A stretch of DNA of 64,000 nucleotides, from contig JACAEN010000009.1 of NCBI GenBank assembly GCA_013388845.1, positions 13,767 through 77,766 on the forward strand, given 5' to 3'. The DNA comes from Chloroflexota bacterium (GTDB taxonomy: Bacteria > Chloroflexota > Dehalococcoidia > GIF9 > AB-539-J10). Of the stretch, positions 31,527 to 39,883 are shown in pieces. The first letter of the stretch is position 1. Every line of letters begins with the position of its first letter. The position numbers and the translations under genes were made by a program. Below the pieces are notes generated by a model. The model was given only the letters and a program-made list of their open reading frames with translations. It made no database searches and had not been told where the DNA came from.

Positions 31527-32155
31527 CCATCTGGGCTCCCTAGATATAGTCTCTGCTCTGTAAGATACTTTTCTACCTCGGGGGGCACCAGGTAACGAAT
31601 GGGCAGCCCTTGAGCTAGACGCTGGCGAATTTCTGAGGAGCTAATCCCGATTACCGGCATATCGAGCTGAACAACCTTGTCTCGCAGCCCGGGGATTGCT
31701 TTCTCTAGGTGCCTCAAATCTTTTGAGCCTGGTCCTTCGACTTCGCTCAGGACAGGTCTAGGGGCAACCACTAGCCGACACAATTGAACTAATTTCTGGG
31801 GTTCCTTCCACAAGGGCAGCTCAGCTAAAGCATCGCGCCCAAGGATGAAGAACAGATTTGCTTTGCTCCCTAGTTGCTCTCGCAGCGCTATCAGAGTATC
31901 CACGGTGTAAGAGGGACCGGGGCGTTCTACTTCCAGAGTACAAAGCCTAAAACAAGGGTTAGAGGCTATGGCAAGTCGCACCATCTCTACCCTGTGGACC
32001 GCCGGCGTGATAGCACGGTCTAGCTTAAGCCAGGGCTGCCCGGCAGGCACAAAAAGAACCTCGCTAAACCCCAACTTTATTCTAGCTTCCTCGGCGACAA
32101 CAAGGTGACCTATATGGATAGGGTCAAATGTACCACCAAGAATGCCTATATCCAC
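31523..32155 (-). CDS. nadD: Nicotinate-nucleotide adenylyltransferase
   Basis: GILGGTFDPIHIGH nucleotidyltransferase motif. Confidence 0.85.
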   Translation of the reverse strand: MDIGILGGTFDPIHIGHLVVAEEARIKLGFSEVLFVPAGQPWLKLDRAITPAVHRVEMVRLAIASNPCFRLCTLEVERPGPSYTVDTLIALREQLGSKANLFFILGRDALAELPLWKEPQKLVQLCRLVVAPRPVLSEVEGPGSKDLRHLEKAIPGLRDKVVQLDMPVIGISSSEIRQRLAQGLPIRYLVPPEVEKYLTEQRLYLGSPDG

Positions 32156-32159
32156 TTCT

Positions 32160-33212
32160 TTATTTTCTCGGCTTGGGACGGAATATCGCTATCTGGGCCT
32201 CCGAAATTAGTTCCTCGTCCCGGCTCGCCTGCTCCACCATTGCCATGGCTTTCTTGGTCAATTCTAACACAGCCTGGCCCTTAAGCGCAGAGATGTAAAA
32301 CACAGGCATTCCGAGGTTGGATAAGCGCTGCTTCACTTCAGGCAAACGAGCTTGAACCTCAGGCAAATCTATCTTATTTACCGCCACAATTTTGGGCTTC
32401 TGGGCCAGGCTTTTGTATAAGGCTATCTCATTATCCAATGTTCTGAGGTCATCCATAACGGTCGGCGAACTGCCATCCAATAAATAAACCAGCAGCTTGG
32501 TTCTTTCCACATGGCGCAAGAACTCATTTCCCAGTCCTTTGCCCAGATGAGCACCTTCAACAAGTCCAGGAATCTCAGCAACAATAAAGTCTCTTTTATC
32601 GCCTGGCATGACTCCCAAAATTGGCTGGCGGGTGGTAAAGGGGTAATCAGCAATTTCAGGTTTGGCTCTTGATATCGCCGATAATAAAGTGGACTTGCCC
32701 GAGTTTGGCTGACCAATAATACACATATCGGTAATGAGTTTAACCTCCAGAATAATATGCCGCTCCTCTCCCGGTTCACCCTTGCTAGCTATCTCAGGAG
32801 CTTGATTTACCGCTGTGGCAAAGCGAGCATTACCCAGCCCTCCCCGCCCCCCTTTAACCACCAAAACCTGTTGCCCGGGAGTCCTCAAGTCTGCTAAAAG
32901 CATCTCCTCACCTGAACCAGCTTTAGCGAAAACCATTGTGCCTACGGGCACTGAAATAGCTAAGCCCTCGCCTTTCTTGCCATGCTTCCGGCCACCACTT
33001 CCTCGATATCCATTTCCAGCTACAAATTCCTTCTTCCTCCCCAAGAAGGTTAAATCAATCACATCGGGACTAGCTATAATGACCACGCCCCCACCATCCC
33101 CACCATCTCCACCATCCGGACCGCCAAAAGGAACATGCTTCTCCCTGCGGAAACTAACACAGCCATCCCCACCACAACCTCCCCTAACAATAATTTCTCT
33201 CTTATATAGCAT
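32160..33212 (-). CDS. obg: GTPase Obg/CgtA
   Basis: Glycine-rich Obg fold (GGDGGDGGG) and G1-G4 motifs (GQPNSGKST; DIPGL; NKID). Confidence 0.9.
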   Translation of the reverse strand: MLYKREIIVRGGCGGDGCVSFRREKHVPFGGPDGGDGGDGGGVVIIASPDVIDLTFLGRKKEFVAGNGYRGSGGRKHGKKGEGLAISVPVGTMVFAKAGSGEEMLLADLRTPGQQVLVVKGGRGGLGNARFATAVNQAPEIASKGEPGEERHIILEVKLITDMCIIGQPNSGKSTLLSAISRAKPEIADYPFTTRQPILGVMPGDKRDFIVAEIPGLVEGAHLGKGLGNEFLRHVERTKLLVYLLDGSSPTVMDDLRTLDNEIALYKSLAQKPKIVAVNKIDLPEVQARLPEVKQRLSNLGMPVFYISALKGQAVLELTKKAMAMVEQASRDEELISEAQIAIFRPKPRK

Positions 33213-33342
33213 AAGTTAATAATCTAATATAAACTTAATTACATTATATTGATAGACAAGTACTAATTATAATAAACAATGTTGTTGCGAGGTGAGTGAA
33301 TCGTGAGGGAGACCAGTGGGTAGTGTAGGTGGAATAAGCAAC

Positions 33343-33351
33343 AAATTATCC
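33343..33351 (+). promoter_or_regulatory. Perfect consensus DnaA box TTATCCACA in the AT-rich spacer downstream of dnaA
   Basis: Exact 9-mer read from the sequence. The surrounding 33213-33368 is strongly AT-rich. Confidence 0.4.
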
Positions 33352-33368
33352 ACAAATTATTAGTACTT

Positions 33369-34745
33369 CTACACAGTTTGGTATGACTTCCTATAATCTT
33401 TTTGTGAATTAAGTTTCTCTTTGATTTCCTCGATTTGGTCGGAAAGGTTAGGATTGGTGCTCACTGCACTAGCTATTTTTTCGTAGCCGTGCAGAATTGT
33501 GGCATGGTTTCTGCCGCCTAATTCTTTGCCGATCTCAGTTAAGGAGTAGTTATAGCCCTCGCGCATAAGATAGATGGCTATGTGCCGTGCCAGGCTGGTT
33601 TTCCGGTCTCTCTTTTTGGCGATTAGTTCTTCAGTTGCCAGGTTGAAGTGGTCTGCTACCGCCCGTAAGAGCAACTTTATGTCTTGTCTAGGGGGCGTGC
33701 CTGTTAATAACTTGTTCACTGTTTCAGGGGTAATCTTGGTGCCACTTAATTTAGCCTGGGCAGCTAGATATATCAAAGCACCTTCAAGCTGGCGGACGTT
33801 CCCGCACACTTTCTCGGCGACAATGTGCAGCACCCCGTCCAAGTCTGAAATCATCATTGTTTCTGCTTTAGCCCGCAAGATGTTCAGGCGTGTTTCAAAG
33901 TCGGGTGGTTGTATGTCCACGACAAGCCCCCCCTCCAGTCGTGATTTTAGCTTACTGCTAAGTGGCTGCATGTCTTTGGGAGCACAGTCAGCGGTGATGA
34001 CGATTTGACGGTTATTATTGTACAGCTCGTTGAAGGTCTGGAAGAAACATTGCAAGGTTTGTTTCTTATCGATCAAGAAGTGAACATCGTCAAATAGGAA
34101 GGCATGGATATTTCTGAATTTGCTGCGGAACTTGTCAACCTGGTTTTCTCTCACAGCTAATACGAATTCATTGGCGAACTGTTCCGCGGTAGTATAGGTC
34201 GCTTGCAGCCCGTTGTTTGTCGTTAGATGACCGATAGCATGTAGCAAATGAGTCTTGCCCTGTCCGGTGCTGCTGTGGATGAAAAGAGGGTTATAACTGC
34301 TTCCTGGGTTTTCTGCTACTTCTAAAGCGGCAGCATAAGCTAAACGGTTAGAATCGCTGACAACAAAGTTGTCAAAGGTATACCTTGGATTAAATCTATA
34401 CTGTGTAGCTCTGCTACTTGTCCCGCCGTCAGTTTGATTAGCCAAAGGGCTAGCCCCGGCAAGTCCGGGCTGTTCATGATTTTGGACCACGAATTGGACA
34501 TCGACATCCCTACCCGCGATATCCACTAAGGTCTTCCTCACCAGAGGATAGAGGCGTTTAGATAGCCATTCAGCGGCAAAAATGCTCGGGACACTGACGA
34601 CAAAGGTATCATCTTGGCAGCTTACGCCCTCGCTATTGCCAAGCCAAGTAGTGTAATTTGCCTTGCTAACCTGAATTTGAAGCTTGTCTAGGGCCTTCTT
34701 CCAGATTTCTTTTGCTGATTCCAATTTATCCCCACCCGACAACAC
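33369..34745 (-). CDS. dnaA: Chromosomal replication initiator DnaA
   Basis: AAA+ Walker A (SSTGQGKTHLLHAIGH) and a C-terminal DnaA-box binding domain (...KTSLARHIAIYLMRE...). Confidence 0.9.
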   Translation of the reverse strand: MLSGGDKLESAKEIWKKALDKLQIQVSKANYTTWLGNSEGVSCQDDTFVVSVPSIFAAEWLSKRLYPLVRKTLVDIAGRDVDVQFVVQNHEQPGLAGASPLANQTDGGTSSRATQYRFNPRYTFDNFVVSDSNRLAYAAALEVAENPGSSYNPLFIHSSTGQGKTHLLHAIGHLTTNNGLQATYTTAEQFANEFVLAVRENQVDKFRSKFRNIHAFLFDDVHFLIDKKQTLQCFFQTFNELYNNNRQIVITADCAPKDMQPLSSKLKSRLEGGLVVDIQPPDFETRLNILRAKAETMMISDLDGVLHIVAEKVCGNVRQLEGALIYLAAQAKLSGTKITPETVNKLLTGTPPRQDIKLLLRAVADHFNLATEELIAKKRDRKTSLARHIAIYLMREGYNYSLTEIGKELGGRNHATILHGYEKIASAVSTNPNLSDQIEEIKEKLNSQKDYRKSYQTV

Positions 34746-34886
34746 TCAGCCGCGCAGATAGCTGAGAAGAGTATCAAAGTGAGAGTAAGAATGTAAGGAT
34801 TACTGTTTATAGGATATCAAGTTTTCTCAAACCTTCGCTAGGCAACGATTGACATAATTAAAAAATTAAATAAAAATGATTTTGCC

Positions 34887-35891: not shown

Positions 35892-37001
35892 TTGCTCATT
35901 AGATGTCAAAATTGTGGTAGGGAATCTTCTCTTATTTCCCAATCTTTAGGGATATGCCTCGATTGTATTCGGCAGGACTTCGCCGCCGTACTTCCTAATA
36001 TAAAACAAGCTCATAGCGAAGCTAGGAGACTATTTAGTCTCCCTGTTCATCCCCCGAAAAGCGAAACAGGGTGGCGATGTCAGATTTGTGTAAACGAATG
36101 CCGCTTAGCCCCTGGGAGCAGAAGCTATTGTGGATTGCGCTTTAGCCAGGCAGGCAAGATTAAAGGCGCCACGGCGGACTATGCCAACGTCAGTTGGTAT
36201 TATGACCCTTTGCCCACCAATTGCGTGGCAGATTGGGTTTGTCCCGGTGGCACGGGAGCTGGCTACCCTCGGTTTGCCTATTCTGATGGCCCTGAATATG
36301 GATATAAGAATTTGGCTGTTTTCTACCAGGCTTGTTCCTTCGATTGCCTATTTTGTCAGAACTGGCATTATCGCAGCTTGGCGTTACAGGAGGGCAAAGT
36401 CACGGCTGCAAGCTTGGCTAATGCTGTTGACGACCGTACCTCTTGTATCTGCTACTTTGGCGGCGACCCCACGCCGCAGTTGCCCCACTCCCTTCGCGTC
36501 GCCCGACTGGCTTTGCAAAAGAAACGGGGTCGGATTCTGCGCATCTGTTGGGAGACCAATGGCTCCACGCATCCCGCGTTGTTAAAACAGGCTGCCGAGA
36601 TTGCCTTAGATTCTGGCGGGTGTATTAAATTTGACCTCAAAGCCTGGGACGAAGGCTTACATATTGCCCTCTGTGGTATAAGCAATAAGAGGACTCTGGA
36701 AAACTTTCAACTCCTCGCCGAATATGCTCAGAAAAGGCCTAAACCTCCCTTGTTGGTAGCCAGCACCTTGCTAGTTCCCGGATATGTAGACGGGCAAGAA
36801 GTTTCCAACCTCGCTAGATTTATTTCCTCCCTCAGCCCTGAGATCCCTTATTCCCTTCTCGCCTTTGCACCTCAGTTTATGATGCGTGATTTGCCCACCA
36901 CTTCCCGGCGCCACGCTGAAGAATGTCTGGCAGAGGCACAGGCACAGGGGCTAAAAAGAGTCAGGCTAGGCAATGTTCACTTGTTGGGAAAAGATTACTG
37001 A
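35892..37001 (+). CDS. Radical SAM enzyme of the AmmeMemoRadiSam-system type (PFL-activase-like)
   Basis: N-terminal Cys-rich region, then the CSFDCLFCQNWHY radical-SAM cluster motif in the arrangement typical of that family. No AMMECR1 or MEMO1 partner genes are in the window. Confidence 0.55.
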   Translation: MLIRCQNCGRESSLISQSLGICLDCIRQDFAAVLPNIKQAHSEARRLFSLPVHPPKSETGWRCQICVNECRLAPGSRSYCGLRFSQAGKIKGATADYANVSWYYDPLPTNCVADWVCPGGTGAGYPRFAYSDGPEYGYKNLAVFYQACSFDCLFCQNWHYRSLALQEGKVTAASLANAVDDRTSCICYFGGDPTPQLPHSLRVARLALQKKRGRILRICWETNGSTHPALLKQAAEIALDSGGCIKFDLKAWDEGLHIALCGISNKRTLENFQLLAEYAQKRPKPPLLVASTLLVPGYVDGQEVSNLARFISSLSPEIPYSLLAFAPQFMMRDLPTTSRRHAEECLAEAQAQGLKRVRLGNVHLLGKDY

Positions 37002-37072
37002 TCTCGGCATTGTGCGGCTTATCCCGATTTTGGGTATTGATCTTTCTGAGAGGGATTAAGTTTCTCCTTTCT

Positions 37073-37120
37073 TTTGTTTAGGGTTTCGGTGGAGCCATAG
37101 TATAATAAGGCTGTGGCAAA
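37073..37120 (+). promoter_or_regulatory. Conserved promoter/operator module, copy A: TTGTTTAGGGTTTCGGTGGAGCCATAGTATAATAAGGCTGTGGCAAA. TATAAT box at 37101-37106, bracketed by the near-palindrome GCCATAG...CTGTGGC.
   Basis: About 85% identical to a second copy upstream of polA (39835-39883). Confidence 0.55.
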
Positions 37121-37162
37121 GTGGAAGACAAAAGAAGGAAAAACTATATGGAGGTTACAATA

Positions 37163-38173
37163 ATGCCGGATATTGAACTAAAAAAGATACAACCGAACAG
37201 GCTAAATCCAAGGCTTGAGTTCACCAAGGCCGGGCTGGATGAACTCGCAGACAGCATTAAACAGGTAGGGCTTCTTGAGCCTATTATCGTGCGACCGTAC
37301 GGAGGCGAATATCAAGTTGTGGTGGGAGAACGTCGCTATAGGGCTGCGCAGCAAGCTGGCTTAGATAGGGTGCCAGTCATTATTCGAGATTACACCGACG
37401 ACGAGGTAATGGAGCTAAATCTAAGTGAAAACATTCATCGAGAAGACTTGAGTGCTGCCGAGAAAGGCAATCTGTGTCGCAAACTCCTAGAAAAGTTTCC
37501 ATCCAAATATCCAACTCAGACTAGTTTGGCAAAAAAGCTTGGGATTAGTGACCGCACGCTAAATGAATGGCTCAGTGTCTCCGATTTGTCGGACAAAATA
37601 CAGCGAAGGATAGCTCCAGGGGCTAAAAGGGGTGCTGTTCCTGAAGGTAAAGTAGACTACTCGACTGCCCTGCGGATTGCCAGACAAATCAAGGAGCCTG
37701 AAAAGGCTGCTGAAGTAATTGAACATATAGCTGAAAGGCACATCCCGCAAAGATTAGTAACTCGAGTTGCCAAGCAAGTCGTGCGGGAGCCTCAAAAACC
37801 TGTCGAGCAAATTTTTCAGAAAGTTATTGAGGAAGCCCCCATACTTTTGCCCTTCTCCAAACCTCATGCTGATGCTATTCTCGCGGGCATTAAAACGCAG
37901 ACCTCTAGGAAAGCGAAAGATCCAAGGCTCCAGCCAGGTGTTACCGTGAGGGCACAGGTTACCCATTTTGCTGACCTAGAGGTAACCGACGTTTATCGAA
38001 AGAAACTGGGAGACTTTGATAAGGAGGATGCAAGGAGGGAAGGTGGCTATACTCTCGACCAGTTCAAAGAGGTTTGGAAGAAGCTCCACGGAGAATGGAA
38101 CCCAAACGAATCTGTTTACATTACTAGATTCAGACTCGTCAGAGTAGTTGGAGAGCCTGACAGTCCCAGCTAA
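37163..38173 (+). CDS. Fusion protein: ParB/Srx-like N-terminal domain + HTH + C-terminal ASCH domain. Start at the Met of MPDIELKK with a GGAGG RBS; the GTG at 37121 in the ORF track is less likely.
   Basis: ParB box GERRYRAAQQAG and LEPIIVRP. HTH LAKKLGISDRTLNEW. ASCH signature ...ADAILAGIKTQTSRK...GVTVRA... Confidence 0.65.
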   Translation: MPDIELKKIQPNRLNPRLEFTKAGLDELADSIKQVGLLEPIIVRPYGGEYQVVVGERRYRAAQQAGLDRVPVIIRDYTDDEVMELNLSENIHREDLSAAEKGNLCRKLLEKFPSKYPTQTSLAKKLGISDRTLNEWLSVSDLSDKIQRRIAPGAKRGAVPEGKVDYSTALRIARQIKEPEKAAEVIEHIAERHIPQRLVTRVAKQVVREPQKPVEQIFQKVIEEAPILLPFSKPHADAILAGIKTQTSRKAKDPRLQPGVTVRAQVTHFADLEVTDVYRKKLGDFDKEDARREGGYTLDQFKEVWKKLHGEWNPNESVYITRFRLVRVVGEPDSPS

Positions 38174-38198
38174 GATAGAAGACTCGGGAGGTATTTCG

Positions 38199-38402
38199 AT
38201 GGAACGAAAACCAAGAGTTTACTGGTTCAAAGGCAAAAAAGGGCGGAAGGATACCTTGCTCTTTGATGCTGGTTATGAATTGGGTTTCATTTACGTTTAC
38301 GAATTTAAAGAAAGCCTACCAGCAAGTCAGCTAGAAAGCCAAATTGAAAAATATGGCTATTTTCAGGCCTGGGATATAAGTCCGTCACGTGACGTTCCTT
38401 AA
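38199..38402 (+). CDS. Hypothetical small protein (67 aa). MERKPRVYWFKGKKG...
   Basis: GGGAGG RBS 8 nt upstream. Tightly packed after the ParB-ASCH gene. Confidence 0.4.
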   Translation: MERKPRVYWFKGKKGRKDTLLFDAGYELGFIYVYEFKESLPASQLESQIEKYGYFQAWDISPSRDVP

Positions 38403-39219
38403 CTGGGGTAGTGTGGTGGTCTATCAGCGTAAGAAAGTACTCATAGTTGTAAAGACTTATCCGACTCCAGCGAGGAAGGGTGTCGAAGTATCCTGCACCG
38501 CAGGCATCACTGAAGATAGAAAATGGATAAGACTCTTTCCCTTGCCATTCAGGTTCTTGCGAAGCGAGAAGCAATTCAAAAAATATCAGTGGATTGAGGT
38601 AGCTGTGATGAAAGCTTCCGACCCTAGGCCAGATAGCTGGATTGTAGATTTAGACTCGATAAAAGTCCTAGGCGATCCCCTTCCCACTTCTGATGGTTGG
38701 CAGGCTCGGAAGGATATAGTTCTGCCATTACTGGCCCCGTCACTTTGCCATCTGGTTAGAAATCGCGAGAAAACAGGCTCAACATTGGGCATTTTCAAGC
38801 CAAAGGAAATAAGGGGACTTATCATAGAGCCAGAAGAGTCGGCTAGTTGGACCGAACAAGAACTGAATATACTATCACAAGGGTCGATGTTTGACAGAAA
38901 GCCGTTCAAACTACTGGAGAAGATACCTTATAAATTTATCTATTCACTCACATGTAATGAACCTAGTTGCGTGGGGCACCGATTATCTGTTGTAGATTGG
39001 GAAGTTGCTCAGGCGTATCGGACCTGGAGAAAGCATTACGGCAATCAGTGGGAACAGCCTTTCCGACAACGATTTGAAACAGAAATGATCCGTAAATACG
39101 ATACCCATTTCTATGTAGGAACACTCAGGGCGCACCCTGATAGGTGGATTATTATAGGTTTGTTCTATCCGCCACGATTAACGTGGAGCAGGTCTATTGG
39201 AGGTGTGAAGTGGGCGTGA
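38389..39219 (+). CDS. Hypothetical protein (~270 aa), no recognisable domain. The start is uncertain (GTG at 38389 or 38413).
   Basis: Long open frame overlapping its neighbours by a few codons. ...KKVLIVVKTYPTPARKGVEVSCTAGITEDRKWIRLFPLPFRFL... Confidence 0.45.
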   Translation: MTFLNWGSVVVYQRKKVLIVVKTYPTPARKGVEVSCTAGITEDRKWIRLFPLPFRFLRSEKQFKKYQWIEVAVMKASDPRPDSWIVDLDSIKVLGDPLPTSDGWQARKDIVLPLLAPSLCHLVRNREKTGSTLGIFKPKEIRGLIIEPEESASWTEQELNILSQGSMFDRKPFKLLEKIPYKFIYSLTCNEPSCVGHRLSVVDWEVAQAYRTWRKHYGNQWEQPFRQRFETEMIRKYDTHFYVGTLRAHPDRWIIIGLFYPPRLTWSRSIGGVKWA

Positions 39220-39668
39220 ACGGAAGTGACTGGTTAGAGCAGCCAAGCACAGAGTTGTGGGAAGCGAGGCGACGCTGGTTCGACGAACTGGCCGAGTCAC
39301 TCGCTGGTGAAGGAGCCTACGATGTTAGTGAACAAGCTTGTGCTCTCATAGGTGAAATGCAGACAGCGTTTTGTGCTGGCGCATGGGTCGCTGTCCTCGT
39401 GCTGGCGATGGCCGTGGTCGATGCTCAACTTCGGGAGACCGAGCTGCCGGGGTTTAAGGGAAATACTCAGCAGCTTCTGGATGCTGTTCAAGCAAATCCT
39501 GAGTTGCAGCGGCTTCGTGGAAGACGAAATGCCATCATTCACATAAGGCCTGAGAATCCAGCGATTACATTGGACCAGCAATGGGCCAATCGGGCTGAAC
39601 TGGAGCAAGAGGCTAAGCAAGCTGTGAAGCTCATGTTCGAAGCTTTCTACATTGGACCAATGGTATGA
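39210..39668 (+). CDS. Hypothetical protein (~152 aa). GTG start at 39210 preceded by GGAGG; the ORF-track ATG at 39144 overlaps the upstream gene by 76 nt.
   Basis: Open frame ...SDWLEQPSTELWEARRRWFDELAESLAGEGAYDV...AVLVLAMAVVDAQLRETELPGF... No known domain recognised. Confidence 0.4.
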   Translation: MGVNGSDWLEQPSTELWEARRRWFDELAESLAGEGAYDVSEQACALIGEMQTAFCAGAWVAVLVLAMAVVDAQLRETELPGFKGNTQQLLDAVQANPELQRLRGRRNAIIHIRPENPAITLDQQWANRAELEQEAKQAVKLMFEAFYIGPMV

Positions 39669-39834
39669 CGTGAAGGTCAGACCCCTTCAAGTGACCTGAG
39701 TGACATGCTCAGAATTGAGATAGTTCCGCAACTGCCTGTTCACTCAGTATGATATGGACGGAGATGAAACAATCTCAAAGGCCCAAAATTCAAAACCCTC
39801 ACGTTGTGGGCACTGGGAATTCAGGTTTTGATAT

Positions 39835-39883
39835 TTTTAGGGTTTCGGTGCTGCCATAGAGTATAATAGGGCTATGGCAAACG
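39835..39883 (+). promoter_or_regulatory. Conserved promoter/operator module, copy B: TTTTTAGGGTTTCGGTGCTGCCATAGAGTATAATAGGGCTATGGCAAA. TATAAT at 39862-39867. Perfect palindrome GCCATAG-N12-CTATGGC. The polA ATG at 39874 lies inside the right half-site.
   Basis: Read directly from the sequence. With the -10 box ending 6 nt before the polA ATG, this implies a leaderless or near-leaderless transcript. Confidence 0.55.

What the first reader, a model, noticed from the sequence alone, without database searches (positions are those of the whole stretch)
37073..39668. Four-gene operon led by a ParB/Srx-HTH-ASCH fusion protein plus three proteins of unknown function: candidate undescribed system
Seen in sequence: a 337-aa protein combines three domains.
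- A ParB N-terminal domain with a canonical GERRYRAA arginine box. In bona fide ParB this is the CTP-binding/nuclease-like module.
- A helix-turn-helix.
- A C-terminal ASCH domain with the G-x-K-x-x-x-x-R signature. ASCH is a PUA-like fold that in characterised cases recognises modified bases in nucleic acids.
It is followed, with overlapping or near-overlapping junctions (38173/38199, 38402/38389, 39219/39210), by three ORFs of 67, ~270 and ~152 aa in which I recognise no domain.
Inference: the tight packing implies one transcript and a functional unit. A ParB-type NTP-dependent DNA clamp or nuclease fold fused to a modified-base reader domain is unusual. It is reminiscent of modification-sensing defence logic (for example, the ParB-like DndB or GmrSD-type DUF262). 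The operon also sits under the same palindromic operator as polA, which suggests damage- or stress-linked regulation. I cannot place it in any described system from sequence alone.
Basis: partly seen in the sequence, partly recalled or inferred. Interest (0 to 1): 0.72.

Follow-up and report, generated by a model that had tools for sequence, protein, structure and literature searches.

The report
ParB-ASCH and dual-OB gene cassette
A compact four-gene cassette in a Dehalococcoidales-type Chloroflexi genome is built around a conserved gene pair, and it is an unrecorded variant of a catalogued but untested candidate anti-phage system (PADLOC PDC-M19), whose function is still unknown.

Summary
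Four tightly packed + strand genes lie at 37163-39668.

- P1 (336 aa): ParB N-domain with intact CTP-binding motifs, a ParB HTH, and an ASCH domain that keeps the YqfB-type catalytic residues.
- P2 (67 aa): a real gene with no recognisable family.
- P3 (~268 aa): no Pfam hit. It matches PADLOC PDC-M19B (E 3e-65) and PHROG 25907, and is predicted to be a dual OB fold.

The conserved unit is the P1+P3 pair, not the four genes. About 76 of 76 informative ParB-ASCH loci carry a P3-family gene next door. In 79 of 80 P3 loci the upstream partner is either ParB-ASCH or a DUF488 protein (PDC-M19A), and that DUF488 protein is sometimes itself fused to ParB_N. P2 and P4 are lineage-specific add-ons. P4 homologs and NYN nucleases recur in defence-like settings. 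DUF488-type pairs occur in phages, prophages and IS-flanked loci.

The "operator shared with polA" is a duplicated copy of the polA promoter, including its first three codons. It is found only in this lineage.

Best reading: a ParB/ASCH-headed variant of the untested PDC-M19 candidate that probably acts on modified nucleic acid. Defence is plausible but unproven. Vertical stability in one clade keeps a housekeeping role open.

The parts
37028..37120 (+). Promoter block in front of P1. It is a paralogous copy of the polA promoter (repeat core 37068-37120), with TTTAGGGTTTCGGTG at 37077-37091 and TATAAT at 37101-37106.
   Evidence: Direct repeat with 39827-39881. Four-way alignment with L006, L001 and the window polA copy. 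A 96-nt match to the polA-upstream region of L092. Only two copies in the window.
37094..37117 (.). Inverted repeat GCCATAG-N10-CTGTGGC bracketing the -10 box. It is a possible operator.
   Evidence: The same 24-bp arrangement occurs in L001, L006 and L092. The window polA copy (39853-39878) has N12.
37163..38173 (+). P1, 336 aa: ParB N-domain (about 37169-37438), ParB-type HTH/DNA-binding domain (HTH about 37502-37579), helical linker, and ASCH domain (about 37853-38140).
   Evidence: Pfam and NCBIfam. PDB sequence matches to Spo0J, ParB, Noc and KorB. Family alignment with invariant GERRYRA, ENxxR, KTQTSRK and the E of REGGY. hhalign to YqfB.
38199..38402 (+). P2, 67 aa, unknown fold. A lineage-specific accessory gene.
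   Evidence: No hit in Pfam, NCBIfam, PADLOC or PHROGs. Conserved in 9 related loci with third-position-biased substitutions. One pseudogenised copy in L110.
38413..39219 (+). P3, about 268 aa: PDC-M19B family, predicted dual OB fold. It is the invariant partner of P1.
39210..39668 (+). P4, 152 aa: HEPN-fold protein with R-N-x3-H. A predicted RNase and a lineage-specific accessory gene.
39827..39881 (+). Second copy of the promoter block, in front of polA. The polA ATG 39874 lies inside its right arm. This marks the right-hand limit of the duplicated segment. Cassette homology with L006 ends near 39713.

Best explanation
What it is (shown)
- The cassette has a two-gene core.
- P1 is a ParB-type protein. 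Its N-terminal CTP-binding domain and HTH DNA-binding domain are close to those of chromosomal ParB/Noc. Its C-terminal dimerisation domain is replaced by an ASCH domain of the YqfB (G-x-K-x-x-T-x-R) type, with the Lys/Thr/Arg/Glu catalytic residues invariant.
- P3 belongs to the PADLOC candidate family PDC-M19B and is predicted to be two OB folds, which makes it a likely binder of single-stranded nucleic acid.
- In the wider P3 family the upstream partner is normally a DUF488 protein (PDC-M19A). That protein is usually preceded by a Zn-ribbon/wHTH protein and is sometimes fused to a ParB N-domain.
- This locus is therefore a ParB/ASCH-headed variant of PDC-M19.
- In this lineage a 67-aa protein and a HEPN-fold protein with R-N-x3-H were added. 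The whole cassette is driven by a duplicated copy of the polA promoter.

How it most likely works (inferred)
- P1 binds DNA through its HTH and uses CTP as a switch or clamp.
- This tethers the ASCH domain, which probes or hydrolyses an N4-acylated or similarly modified base.
- P3 holds the single-stranded or unwound substrate.
- ASCH and DUF488 would be interchangeable heads doing this job.
- The setting is most likely conflict with phages or mobile DNA. In this lineage the HEPN RNase would act as an added effector.
For: Domains and motifs
- ParB_N E 2e-29. Alignment to Spo0J, ParB-CTPgammaS and Noc structures, with GERRYRAA and ENxxREDLS kept.
- ASCH catalytic set: hhalign of the family to E. 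coli YqfB aligns K21, T24, R26 and E74 with invariant K, T, R and E. The roles of these residues come from PMC6972931 and bioRxiv 10.64898/2026.02.27.708502.

P3
- PDC-M19B E 2.7e-65.
- A family of about 2,700 50%-identity clusters, all stand-alone proteins of about 260 aa.
- OB and tandem-OB structural matches.
- Weak Pfam DuOB hits in 4 of 41 members.

Obligate pairing
- 75 of 80 metagenome loci found through P1 carry P3 next to it. Four have no room, and one has a divergent PDC-M19B gene.
- Of 80 species-representative loci found through P3, 79 have a partner directly upstream: 9 ParB-ASCH, 62 c2+DUF488, 5 ParB_N-DUF488 fusions and 3 DUF488 without a detected c2 protein.
- The DUF488 partner is PDC-M19A, E 2e-29.
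- An archaeal ParB-DUF488-HTH fusion binds CTP.

Conflict-type context
- PDCs were defined as genes embedded in BREX, DISARM or type I RM loci.
- A Gordonia prophage homolog sits beside the immunity repressor.
- In IMG/VR phage contigs the DUF488+P3 pair lies between terminase and portal, next to an HsdR-like helicase, or next to an integrase.
- Transposases flank many DUF488-type loci.
- In Dehalogenimonas the set c2+DUF488+P3+P4 lies near an integrase.
- P4 homologs follow a type VII retron beside SIR2+DUF87.
- HEC-09-like NYN genes sit beside the pair in three lineages.
- The cassette occurs in at least four genomic contexts.
Against: - No member of PDC-M19 or of this variant has been tested. 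No searchable paper mentions PDC-M19.
- In one Dehalococcoidales clade the pair sits stably between mtnA and mtnP and has diverged in step with those genes: P1 58-66% and P3 64-84% against MtnA 68-78% and MTAP 69-79%. The proteins are strongly conserved, with 74% mean column identity. This looks more like a housekeeping or domesticated function than a fast-turnover defence gene.
- ASCH proteins tested so far act on free ac4C or on tRNA, not on DNA.
- A ParB clamp normally needs the C-terminal dimerisation domain, which is missing here.
- The HEC-09 NYN candidate gave no protection when tested.
- How a free HEPN protein is kept inactive is unexplained.
Confidence: 0.45

Rival explanations
1. 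Housekeeping nucleic-acid maintenance. The P1+P3 pair erases acyl (for example N4-acetyl) marks or lesions on cytosine in single-stranded DNA or in tRNA/rRNA. The ParB domain acts as an NTP-gated nucleic-acid tether and the dual-OB protein holds the substrate. P2 and P4 are later passengers.
For: - YqfB-type catalytic residues are invariant.
- All 19 ASCH proteins tested in a 2026 preprint removed ac4C from tRNA, and an added HTH domain enhanced tRNA binding.
- The pair is syntenic and co-diverges with mtnA and mtnP in a whole clade.
- Sequence conservation is very high.
- In this lineage the cassette shares a promoter with polA and lies about 3-5 kb from dnaA and the GC-skew minimum.
Against: - The P3 family is carried by phages, prophages and IS-flanked islands, and it was catalogued because it is embedded in BREX, DISARM or RM loci.
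- The pair occupies several unrelated genomic contexts and splits the mtnA-mtnP pair like an insertion.
- Accessory HEPN and NYN nucleases are typical of conflict systems.
- The link to the polA promoter is a lineage-specific duplication.
Confidence: 0.3
2. A selfish or addiction-type cassette. P1 is mainly a KorB-like, CTP-dependent transcriptional regulator that binds the inverted repeat at its own promoter. The HEPN protein P4 is a toxin, held in check by P2 or P3.
For: - P1 shows sequence similarity to KorB (E 9e-7) and to ParB-family DNA-binding domains.
- A 24-bp inverted repeat overlaps the -10 box of the cassette promoter.
- P4 has a HEPN fold with an invariant Rx4H motif, like HEPN toxins.
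- The cassette occurs in several contexts.
Against: - P4 and P2 are absent from most P1+P3 loci. P4 also occurs without P2 (L092, L159, Dehalogenimonas) and without P1 or P3.
- The inverted repeat is confined to the polA-linked lineage and is most simply part of the copied polA promoter.
- This model does not explain the invariant ASCH catalytic residues or the obligate P1-P3 pairing.
Confidence: 0.1
3. A chromosome-segregation or nucleoid-occlusion ParB acting at the replication origin.
For: - The N-terminal 220 residues align with Spo0J, ParB and Noc, and the protein is annotated as ParB/Spo0J or Noc in public records.
- The gene lies about 2.4 kb from dnaA, near the cumulative GC-skew minimum.
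Against: - There is no C-terminal dimerisation domain.
- There is no adjacent ParA. The only ParA-like match in the window is a 51-aa P-loop stretch 7 kb away.
- No parS consensus occurs within 3 mismatches in 64 kb.
- The Noc model scores 134 bits against a cutoff of 315.
- In most relatives the gene is not near dnaA.
- It is always paired with P3.
Confidence: 0.05

Closest known systems
PADLOC phage-defence candidate PDC-M19 (A: DUF488 protein; B: about 260-aa protein). Predicted by 'guilt-by-embedding', untested.
   Same: P3 matches all three PDC-M19B models (best E 2.7e-65). It is a two-gene module on one strand, with the B gene directly downstream of its partner. ParB_N-DUF488 fusions bridge the two architectures.
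   Different: The A component is missing. P1 has no DUF488 and no PDC-M19A match at E <= 1. An ASCH domain on a ParB-HTH scaffold takes its place. This lineage also adds P2 and a HEPN gene.
Chromosomal ParB/Spo0J, Noc and KorB CTP-dependent DNA clamps
   Same: N-terminal CTP-binding domain with GERRxRA and ENxxR(E)DL motifs, plus the HTH DNA-binding domain. E 5e-29 to T. thermophilus Spo0J, and matches to CTP- or CDP-bound ParB structures.
   Different: No C-terminal dimerisation domain, no ParA, and no canonical parS. There is a C-terminal ASCH domain and an obligate dual-OB partner.
ParB-CTPase fusion families surveyed in PNAS 2025 (PMC12704722): ParB-ASCH (reported as enriched in archaea) and ParB-DUF488-HTH (binds CTP)
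   Same: The same fusion logic. The architecture of P1 is listed there.
   Different: The passages retrieved from the survey give no partner gene, function or bacterial (Dehalococcoidales) family, and no link between the ASCH and DUF488 fusions through a shared dual-OB partner.
YqfB-type ASCH amidohydrolases (N4-acetylcytidine / N4-acylcytosine deacylases; tRNA ac4C erasers)
   Same: ASCH fold with the G-x-K-x-x-T-x-R octapeptide and equivalents of K21, T24, R26 and E74.
   Different: It is not an ortholog: PRK04980 scores 18.5 bits against a cutoff of 93. It is a domain of a DNA-binding ParB protein rather than a free 103-aa enzyme. The substrate is unknown.
Minimal HEPN proteins and toxins (AF0298, SO_3166 HEPN toxin, HEPN-MNT, RnlA/LsoA, PADLOC HEC-08)
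   Same: P4 has the four-helix HEPN core and an invariant R-N-x3-H motif.
   Different: There is no MNT or other recognised antitoxin partner. No HEPN sequence model reaches threshold: HEPN_Cthe2314 scores 14 bits against a cutoff of 27. It forms a separate ~147-aa family of 267 proteins.

Membership tests
PADLOC PDC-M19 | PDC-M19B protein present | tested here: met
   P3 against PDLC04508: E 2.7e-65, covering 14-263 of the protein and 3-262 of the 269-position profile. PDLC04506 and PDLC04507 are also hit.
PADLOC PDC-M19 | PDC-M19A (DUF488) protein encoded next to B | tested here: not met
   P1 has no PDC-M19A or DUF488 match at E <= 1. Canonical partners from other loci do match: E 2.3e-29 to PDC-M19A and E 1.4e-20 to DUF488.
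PADLOC PDC-M19 | Protects against phage | not testable with these tools
   PDCs are computational candidates. No paper in the library mentions PDC-M19.
ParABS partition ParB / Noc | ParB N-domain with CTP-binding motifs, plus the HTH DNA-binding domain | tested here: met
   ParB_N E 2.2e-29. TIGR00180 scores 138 bits against a cutoff of 58. Motifs are aligned to Spo0J, ParB and Noc structures.
ParABS partition ParB / Noc | C-terminal dimerisation domain | tested here: not met
   The C-terminal ~100 residues are ASCH. No ParB C-terminal model was hit.
ParABS partition ParB / Noc | Adjacent ParA and parS sites; for Noc, a full-length equivalog score | tested here: not met
   The neighbours are a radical-SAM gene and polA. 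No parS within 3 mismatches. TIGR04285 scores 134 bits against a cutoff of 315.
YqfB-type ASCH amidohydrolase | ASCH domain with the G-x-K-x-x-T-x-R octapeptide and the Glu74 equivalent | tested here: met
   Pfam ASCH scores 37.4 bits against a cutoff of 21.2. KTQTSRK and the E of REGGY are invariant in 26 homologs. Residue roles come from PMC6972931.
YqfB-type ASCH amidohydrolase | Equivalog-level similarity and measured deacylase activity | tested here: not met
   NF003443 (PRK04980) scores 18.5 bits against a cutoff of 93. Activity cannot be tested here.
HEPN superfamily (P4) | HEPN helical fold | tested here: met
HEPN superfamily (P4) | Rx4-6H motif | tested here: met
   R106, N107 and H111 are invariant in 39 sequences.
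HEPN-MNT type toxin-antitoxin | Adjacent minimal nucleotidyltransferase antitoxin | tested here: not met
   No such gene occurs in the cassette or in the P4 contexts that were read.
   No DUF262, DUF1524, GmrSD, BrxU or Dnd model appears among the Pfam or PADLOC hits at E <= 1.
Pfam DuOB (PF22557, dual OB-containing domain) | Match to the DuOB profile | tested here: inconclusive
   The window P3 has no hit. Four of 41 diverse family members hit weakly (best E 0.002, below the gathering score). Structure searches agree with two OB folds.

The most novel reading that the evidence does not exclude
A CTP-gated ParB DNA clamp carries a catalytically competent ASCH de-acylase along DNA and, with a dedicated dual-OB single-strand binder, senses or erases an acylated or hypermodified base in DNA. 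This would be a new kind of modification-directed immunity or repair. On this reading the enigmatic DUF488 domain is the functional equivalent of ASCH, which would give DUF488 and the whole PDC-M19 family their first mechanistic assignment.
Probability: 0.2. Interest if true: 0.85.

Novelty: new variant of a known kind. Interest (0 to 1): 0.62.

Why it matters
If the reading is right, it links three poorly understood things:
- non-partition ParB-CTPase fusions;
- ASCH de-acylases, known so far only for free ac4C and tRNA;
- the DUF488/dual-OB candidate PDC-M19.

They would form one module in which ASCH and DUF488 are interchangeable heads on a common dual-OB partner.

That gives concrete, testable predictions:
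- CTP binding by P1;
- de-acylation of N4-acyl-cytosine in single-stranded DNA or RNA;
- a P1-P3 complex;
- HEPN-dependent growth arrest.

It would also add a system that current defence-finding tools miss, because P1 matches no PDC-M19A model. It occurs across uncultured Dehalococcoidales, a group whose phage defences are difficult to study experimentally.

Tried and rejected
- Literature. No paper mentions PDC-M19, PF22557 or DuOB. The 'dual OB' search returned only noise. The 'DUF488' hits in the SGNH-hydrolase review are DUF4886, so the idea that DUF488 is an SGNH-type deacetylase was dropped. The Rhodanese-phosphatase paper that I recalled as a possible source for DUF488/DuOB is not held.
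- PDB sequence searches found nothing for P4, for the ASCH domain alone, or for DUF488.
- The afdb50 fold library was unavailable.
- The Gordonia phage 'immunity repressor' upstream of the P3 homolog shows no ASCH, ParB or DUF488 similarity. The partner rule therefore does not visibly extend to it.
- A regulon-type operator was rejected. The motif occurs only twice in 64 kb, and only in the polA-linked lineage.
- A Cys/His zinc site in P3 (C36, C120, C189, C194, H197) is invariant among close homologs but is not conserved across the wide family.
- No Rfam family or tRNA lies in or beside the cassette.
- The viral scan with the P1 alignment found only one distant ParB hit. Alignment A5 was too divergent to scan with.


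Full report
**1. Setting**

The window comes from an uncultured Chloroflexi genome. A public protein 100% identical to P1 is annotated 'MAG: ParB/RepB/Spo0J family partition protein [Chloroflexi bacterium]'. Its closest relatives are Dehalococcoidales and Dehalococcoidia MAGs.

Gene order around the finding:
- obg (-), dnaA (-), fmt (+)
- a radical-SAM gene (+)
- the four ORFs
- polA (+)

The cumulative GC skew reaches its minimum at 32-34 kb, beside dnaA. The cassette therefore lies a few kb from the likely origin.

**2. The observation**

P1
- P1 matches Pfam ParB_N (E 2.2e-29) and ASCH (E 4.3e-9, above the curated cutoff). It also matches NCBIfam parB_part at 138 bits against a cutoff of 58.
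- Residues 1-220 align with Spo0J, with ParB bound to CTPgammaS or CDP, and with Noc. The LxxSIxxxGxxxPIxV, GERRYRAA and ENxxREDLS motifs are kept.
- The likeliest start is ATG 37163, behind a GGAGG, giving 336 aa.

P2 to P4
- P2 (38199-38402) and P4 (GTG 39210) have good Shine-Dalgarno sequences.
- P3 most likely starts at GTG 38413 or 38416, judging from its homologs.
- No + strand terminator-like site lies inside the cassette. No RNA family or tRNA is present.
- P2 is conserved in nine related loci with third-position-biased substitutions, so it is a real gene.

**3. What the downstream genes are**

P3
- P3 has no Pfam or NCBIfam match. It does match PADLOC PDC-M19B (E 2.7e-65) and phrog_25907 (E 1.3e-55).
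- The family is large: 2,789 hits in one search and about 2,700 50%-identity clusters in another. Nearly all are stand-alone proteins of about 260 aa.
- By Foldseek it matches tandem-OB proteins: TEBP-alpha, Teb1-AB, RPA70 and LEF-3.
- Four of 41 diverse members hit Pfam 'DuOB' weakly.
- I read P3 as a dual-OB nucleic-acid binder. Conserved acidic and basic residues leave an enzymatic role open.

P4
- P4 belongs to a family of 267 proteins of about 147 aa, with invariant R-N-x3-H.

**4. The conserved unit**

Starting from P3, I scanned one genome per species and obtained 80 loci. The gene directly upstream was:

| Upstream partner | Loci |
|---|---|
| ParB-ASCH | 9 |
| ~115-aa Zn-ribbon/wHTH protein plus a ~175-aa DUF488 protein (PDC-M19A, E 2e-29) | 62 |
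| ParB_N-linker-DUF488 fusion | 5 |
| DUF488 without the small Zn-ribbon/wHTH protein | 3 |
| No partner detected | 1 |

Starting from P1, I scanned metagenomes and obtained 80 loci:
- 75 carry P3 next to P1, typically 15-54 nt downstream.
- Four have no room on the contig.
- One carries a divergent PDC-M19B gene.

The core is therefore the P1+P3 pair. ASCH and DUF488 alternate as the head domain, and each can sit on a ParB N-domain.

P2 occurs in nine loci. P4 follows P3 directly in about nine. P4 also occurs without P2 (L092, L159, Dehalogenimonas) and without P1 or P3.

**5. Context elsewhere**

PDC systems were defined as cassettes embedded in BREX, DISARM or type I RM loci, and they are untested. 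No paper mentions PDC-M19.

Conflict-type settings:
- P3 homologs lie next to the immunity repressor of Gordonia prophages.
- In IMG/VR contigs a wHTH-DUF488+P3 pair lies between terminase and portal, beside an HsdR-like helicase, or beside an integrase and a RelA/SpoT protein.
- Transposases of three families flank many DUF488-type loci.
- In Dehalogenimonas etheniformans the set c2+DUF488+P3+P4 lies near an integrase.
- P4 homologs also follow a type VII-A2 retron beside SIR2+DUF87, and a DEAD-helicase-MZB protein.
- NYN proteins resembling HEC-09 sit beside the pair in three lineages. HEC-09 itself gave no protection when tested.

Against a simple defence reading:
- About twenty ParB-ASCH loci share the order mtnA-P1-P3-mtnP-c6.
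- In that clade the pair has diverged in step with its flanking genes.

**6. The promoter shared with polA**

- A block of about 50-95 nt precedes both P1 and polA in the window and in L092. It contains TTTAGGGTTTCGGTG, TATAAT, and GCCATAG-N10-CT(A/G)TGGC around the -10 box. It also precedes polA in L001 and P1 in L006.
- The polA ATG lies 7 nt after the -10 box, so the transcript is probably leaderless.
- The copy before P1 keeps GTGGCAAAG, which corresponds to polA codons 1-3.
- The same cassette in other contexts (L093, L121, L125) lacks the block. Homology there starts at 37124-37161.
- The simplest account is a lineage-specific duplication of the polA promoter, not a regulon operator.
- The motif does not recur elsewhere in the 64 kb. 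No link to damage control was found.

**7. Mechanism**

Shown:
- P1 has intact ParB CTP motifs and an HTH.
- Its ASCH domain is of the YqfB 'GKTR' type. The equivalents of K21, T24, R26 and E74 are invariant. Those residues are essential or important for N4-acylcytosine amidohydrolase activity (PMC6972931; preprint).
- ParB-ASCH fusions are listed in the 2025 ParB-CTPase survey, and an archaeal ParB-DUF488-HTH fusion binds CTP.

Inferred:
- A CTP-gated DNA tether delivers a de-acylase or reader to substrate held by the dual-OB partner.
- ASCH and DUF488 do equivalent jobs.
- The HEPN protein acts as an optional effector.

I rate a conflict (defence-type) role at about 0.45 and a housekeeping eraser or repair role at about 0.3. 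An addiction or regulator cassette gets about 0.1, and a partition or Noc role about 0.05. The partition role is weakened by three findings: there is no C-terminal dimerisation domain, no adjacent ParA, and no parS.

**8. Verdict**

This is a real, conserved and uncharacterised module. It is best filed as a new ParB/ASCH-headed variant of the catalogued but untested candidate PDC-M19, here extended by P2 and a HEPN gene. Current PADLOC models would not call it, because the A component is not matched.

Noticed in passing
window 39862-39876: The polA start codon (ATG 39874) begins 7 nt after the TATAAT box (39862-39867). The polA mRNA is therefore probably leaderless.
   Followed up: partly
window 37113-37163: The duplicated promoter copy keeps GTGGCAAAG (polA codons 1-3). 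This opens a 16-codon mini-ORF whose TAA overlaps the P1 ATG (TAATG), so translational coupling is possible.
   Followed up: no
window 35892-37001 vs L006 3581-3631: The radical-SAM gene between fmt and the cassette is absent from the otherwise collinear relative L006. It scores only weakly against the AmmeMemoRadiSam model (65 bits against a cutoff of 220).
   Followed up: partly
window 32000-34800: The cumulative GC-skew minimum coincides with dnaA (33369-34745, - strand). The replication origin probably lies in this window.
   Followed up: no
L002 4214-4729; L004 6944-7468; L149 3207-3758: NYN-domain proteins lie directly beside the ParB-ASCH+P3 pair in three lineages. The three types are not detectable from one another by BLAST. 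They match PADLOC NYN and HEC-09, E down to 1e-17.
   Followed up: partly
L089 3071-5444; L091 2708-5444: P4 (HEPN) homologs sit directly downstream of a type VII-A2 retron (RT + DUF3800) next to SIR2 and DUF87 genes. Another sits downstream of a DEAD-helicase-MZB protein.
   Followed up: partly
L016 2710-3948; L047 2853-3806; L057 3105-3962 and 20+ other loci: DDE transposases lie divergently just upstream of many c2+DUF488+P3 loci. They are SWIM+DDE_Tnp_1, IS1595, and a weak DDE family.
   Followed up: partly
L086 4027-5831 (Gordonia phage Nymphadora gp44-gp43): A PDC-M19B homolog (E 2.5e-48) overlaps the end of the annotated immunity repressor in the lysogeny module. The repressor shows only an HTH and no DUF488, ASCH or ParB.
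   Followed up: partly
L174 2967-4795; L176 3120-4783; L173 3082-7288: In IMG/VR phage contigs a wHTH-DUF488 + P3 pair sits between the large terminase and the portal genes, or next to an HsdR-like helicase. The DUF488 parts weakly hit Pfam 'Active DUF488-N3 subclade' (PF22751).
   Followed up: partly
L002 7664-8680 and syntenic loci: A conserved ~340-aa protein with no Pfam match (c6) always follows mtnP in the mtnA-P1-P3-mtnP clade.
   Followed up: no
L110: A P2 homolog there carries in-frame stops, so it is a pseudogenised copy.
   Followed up: no
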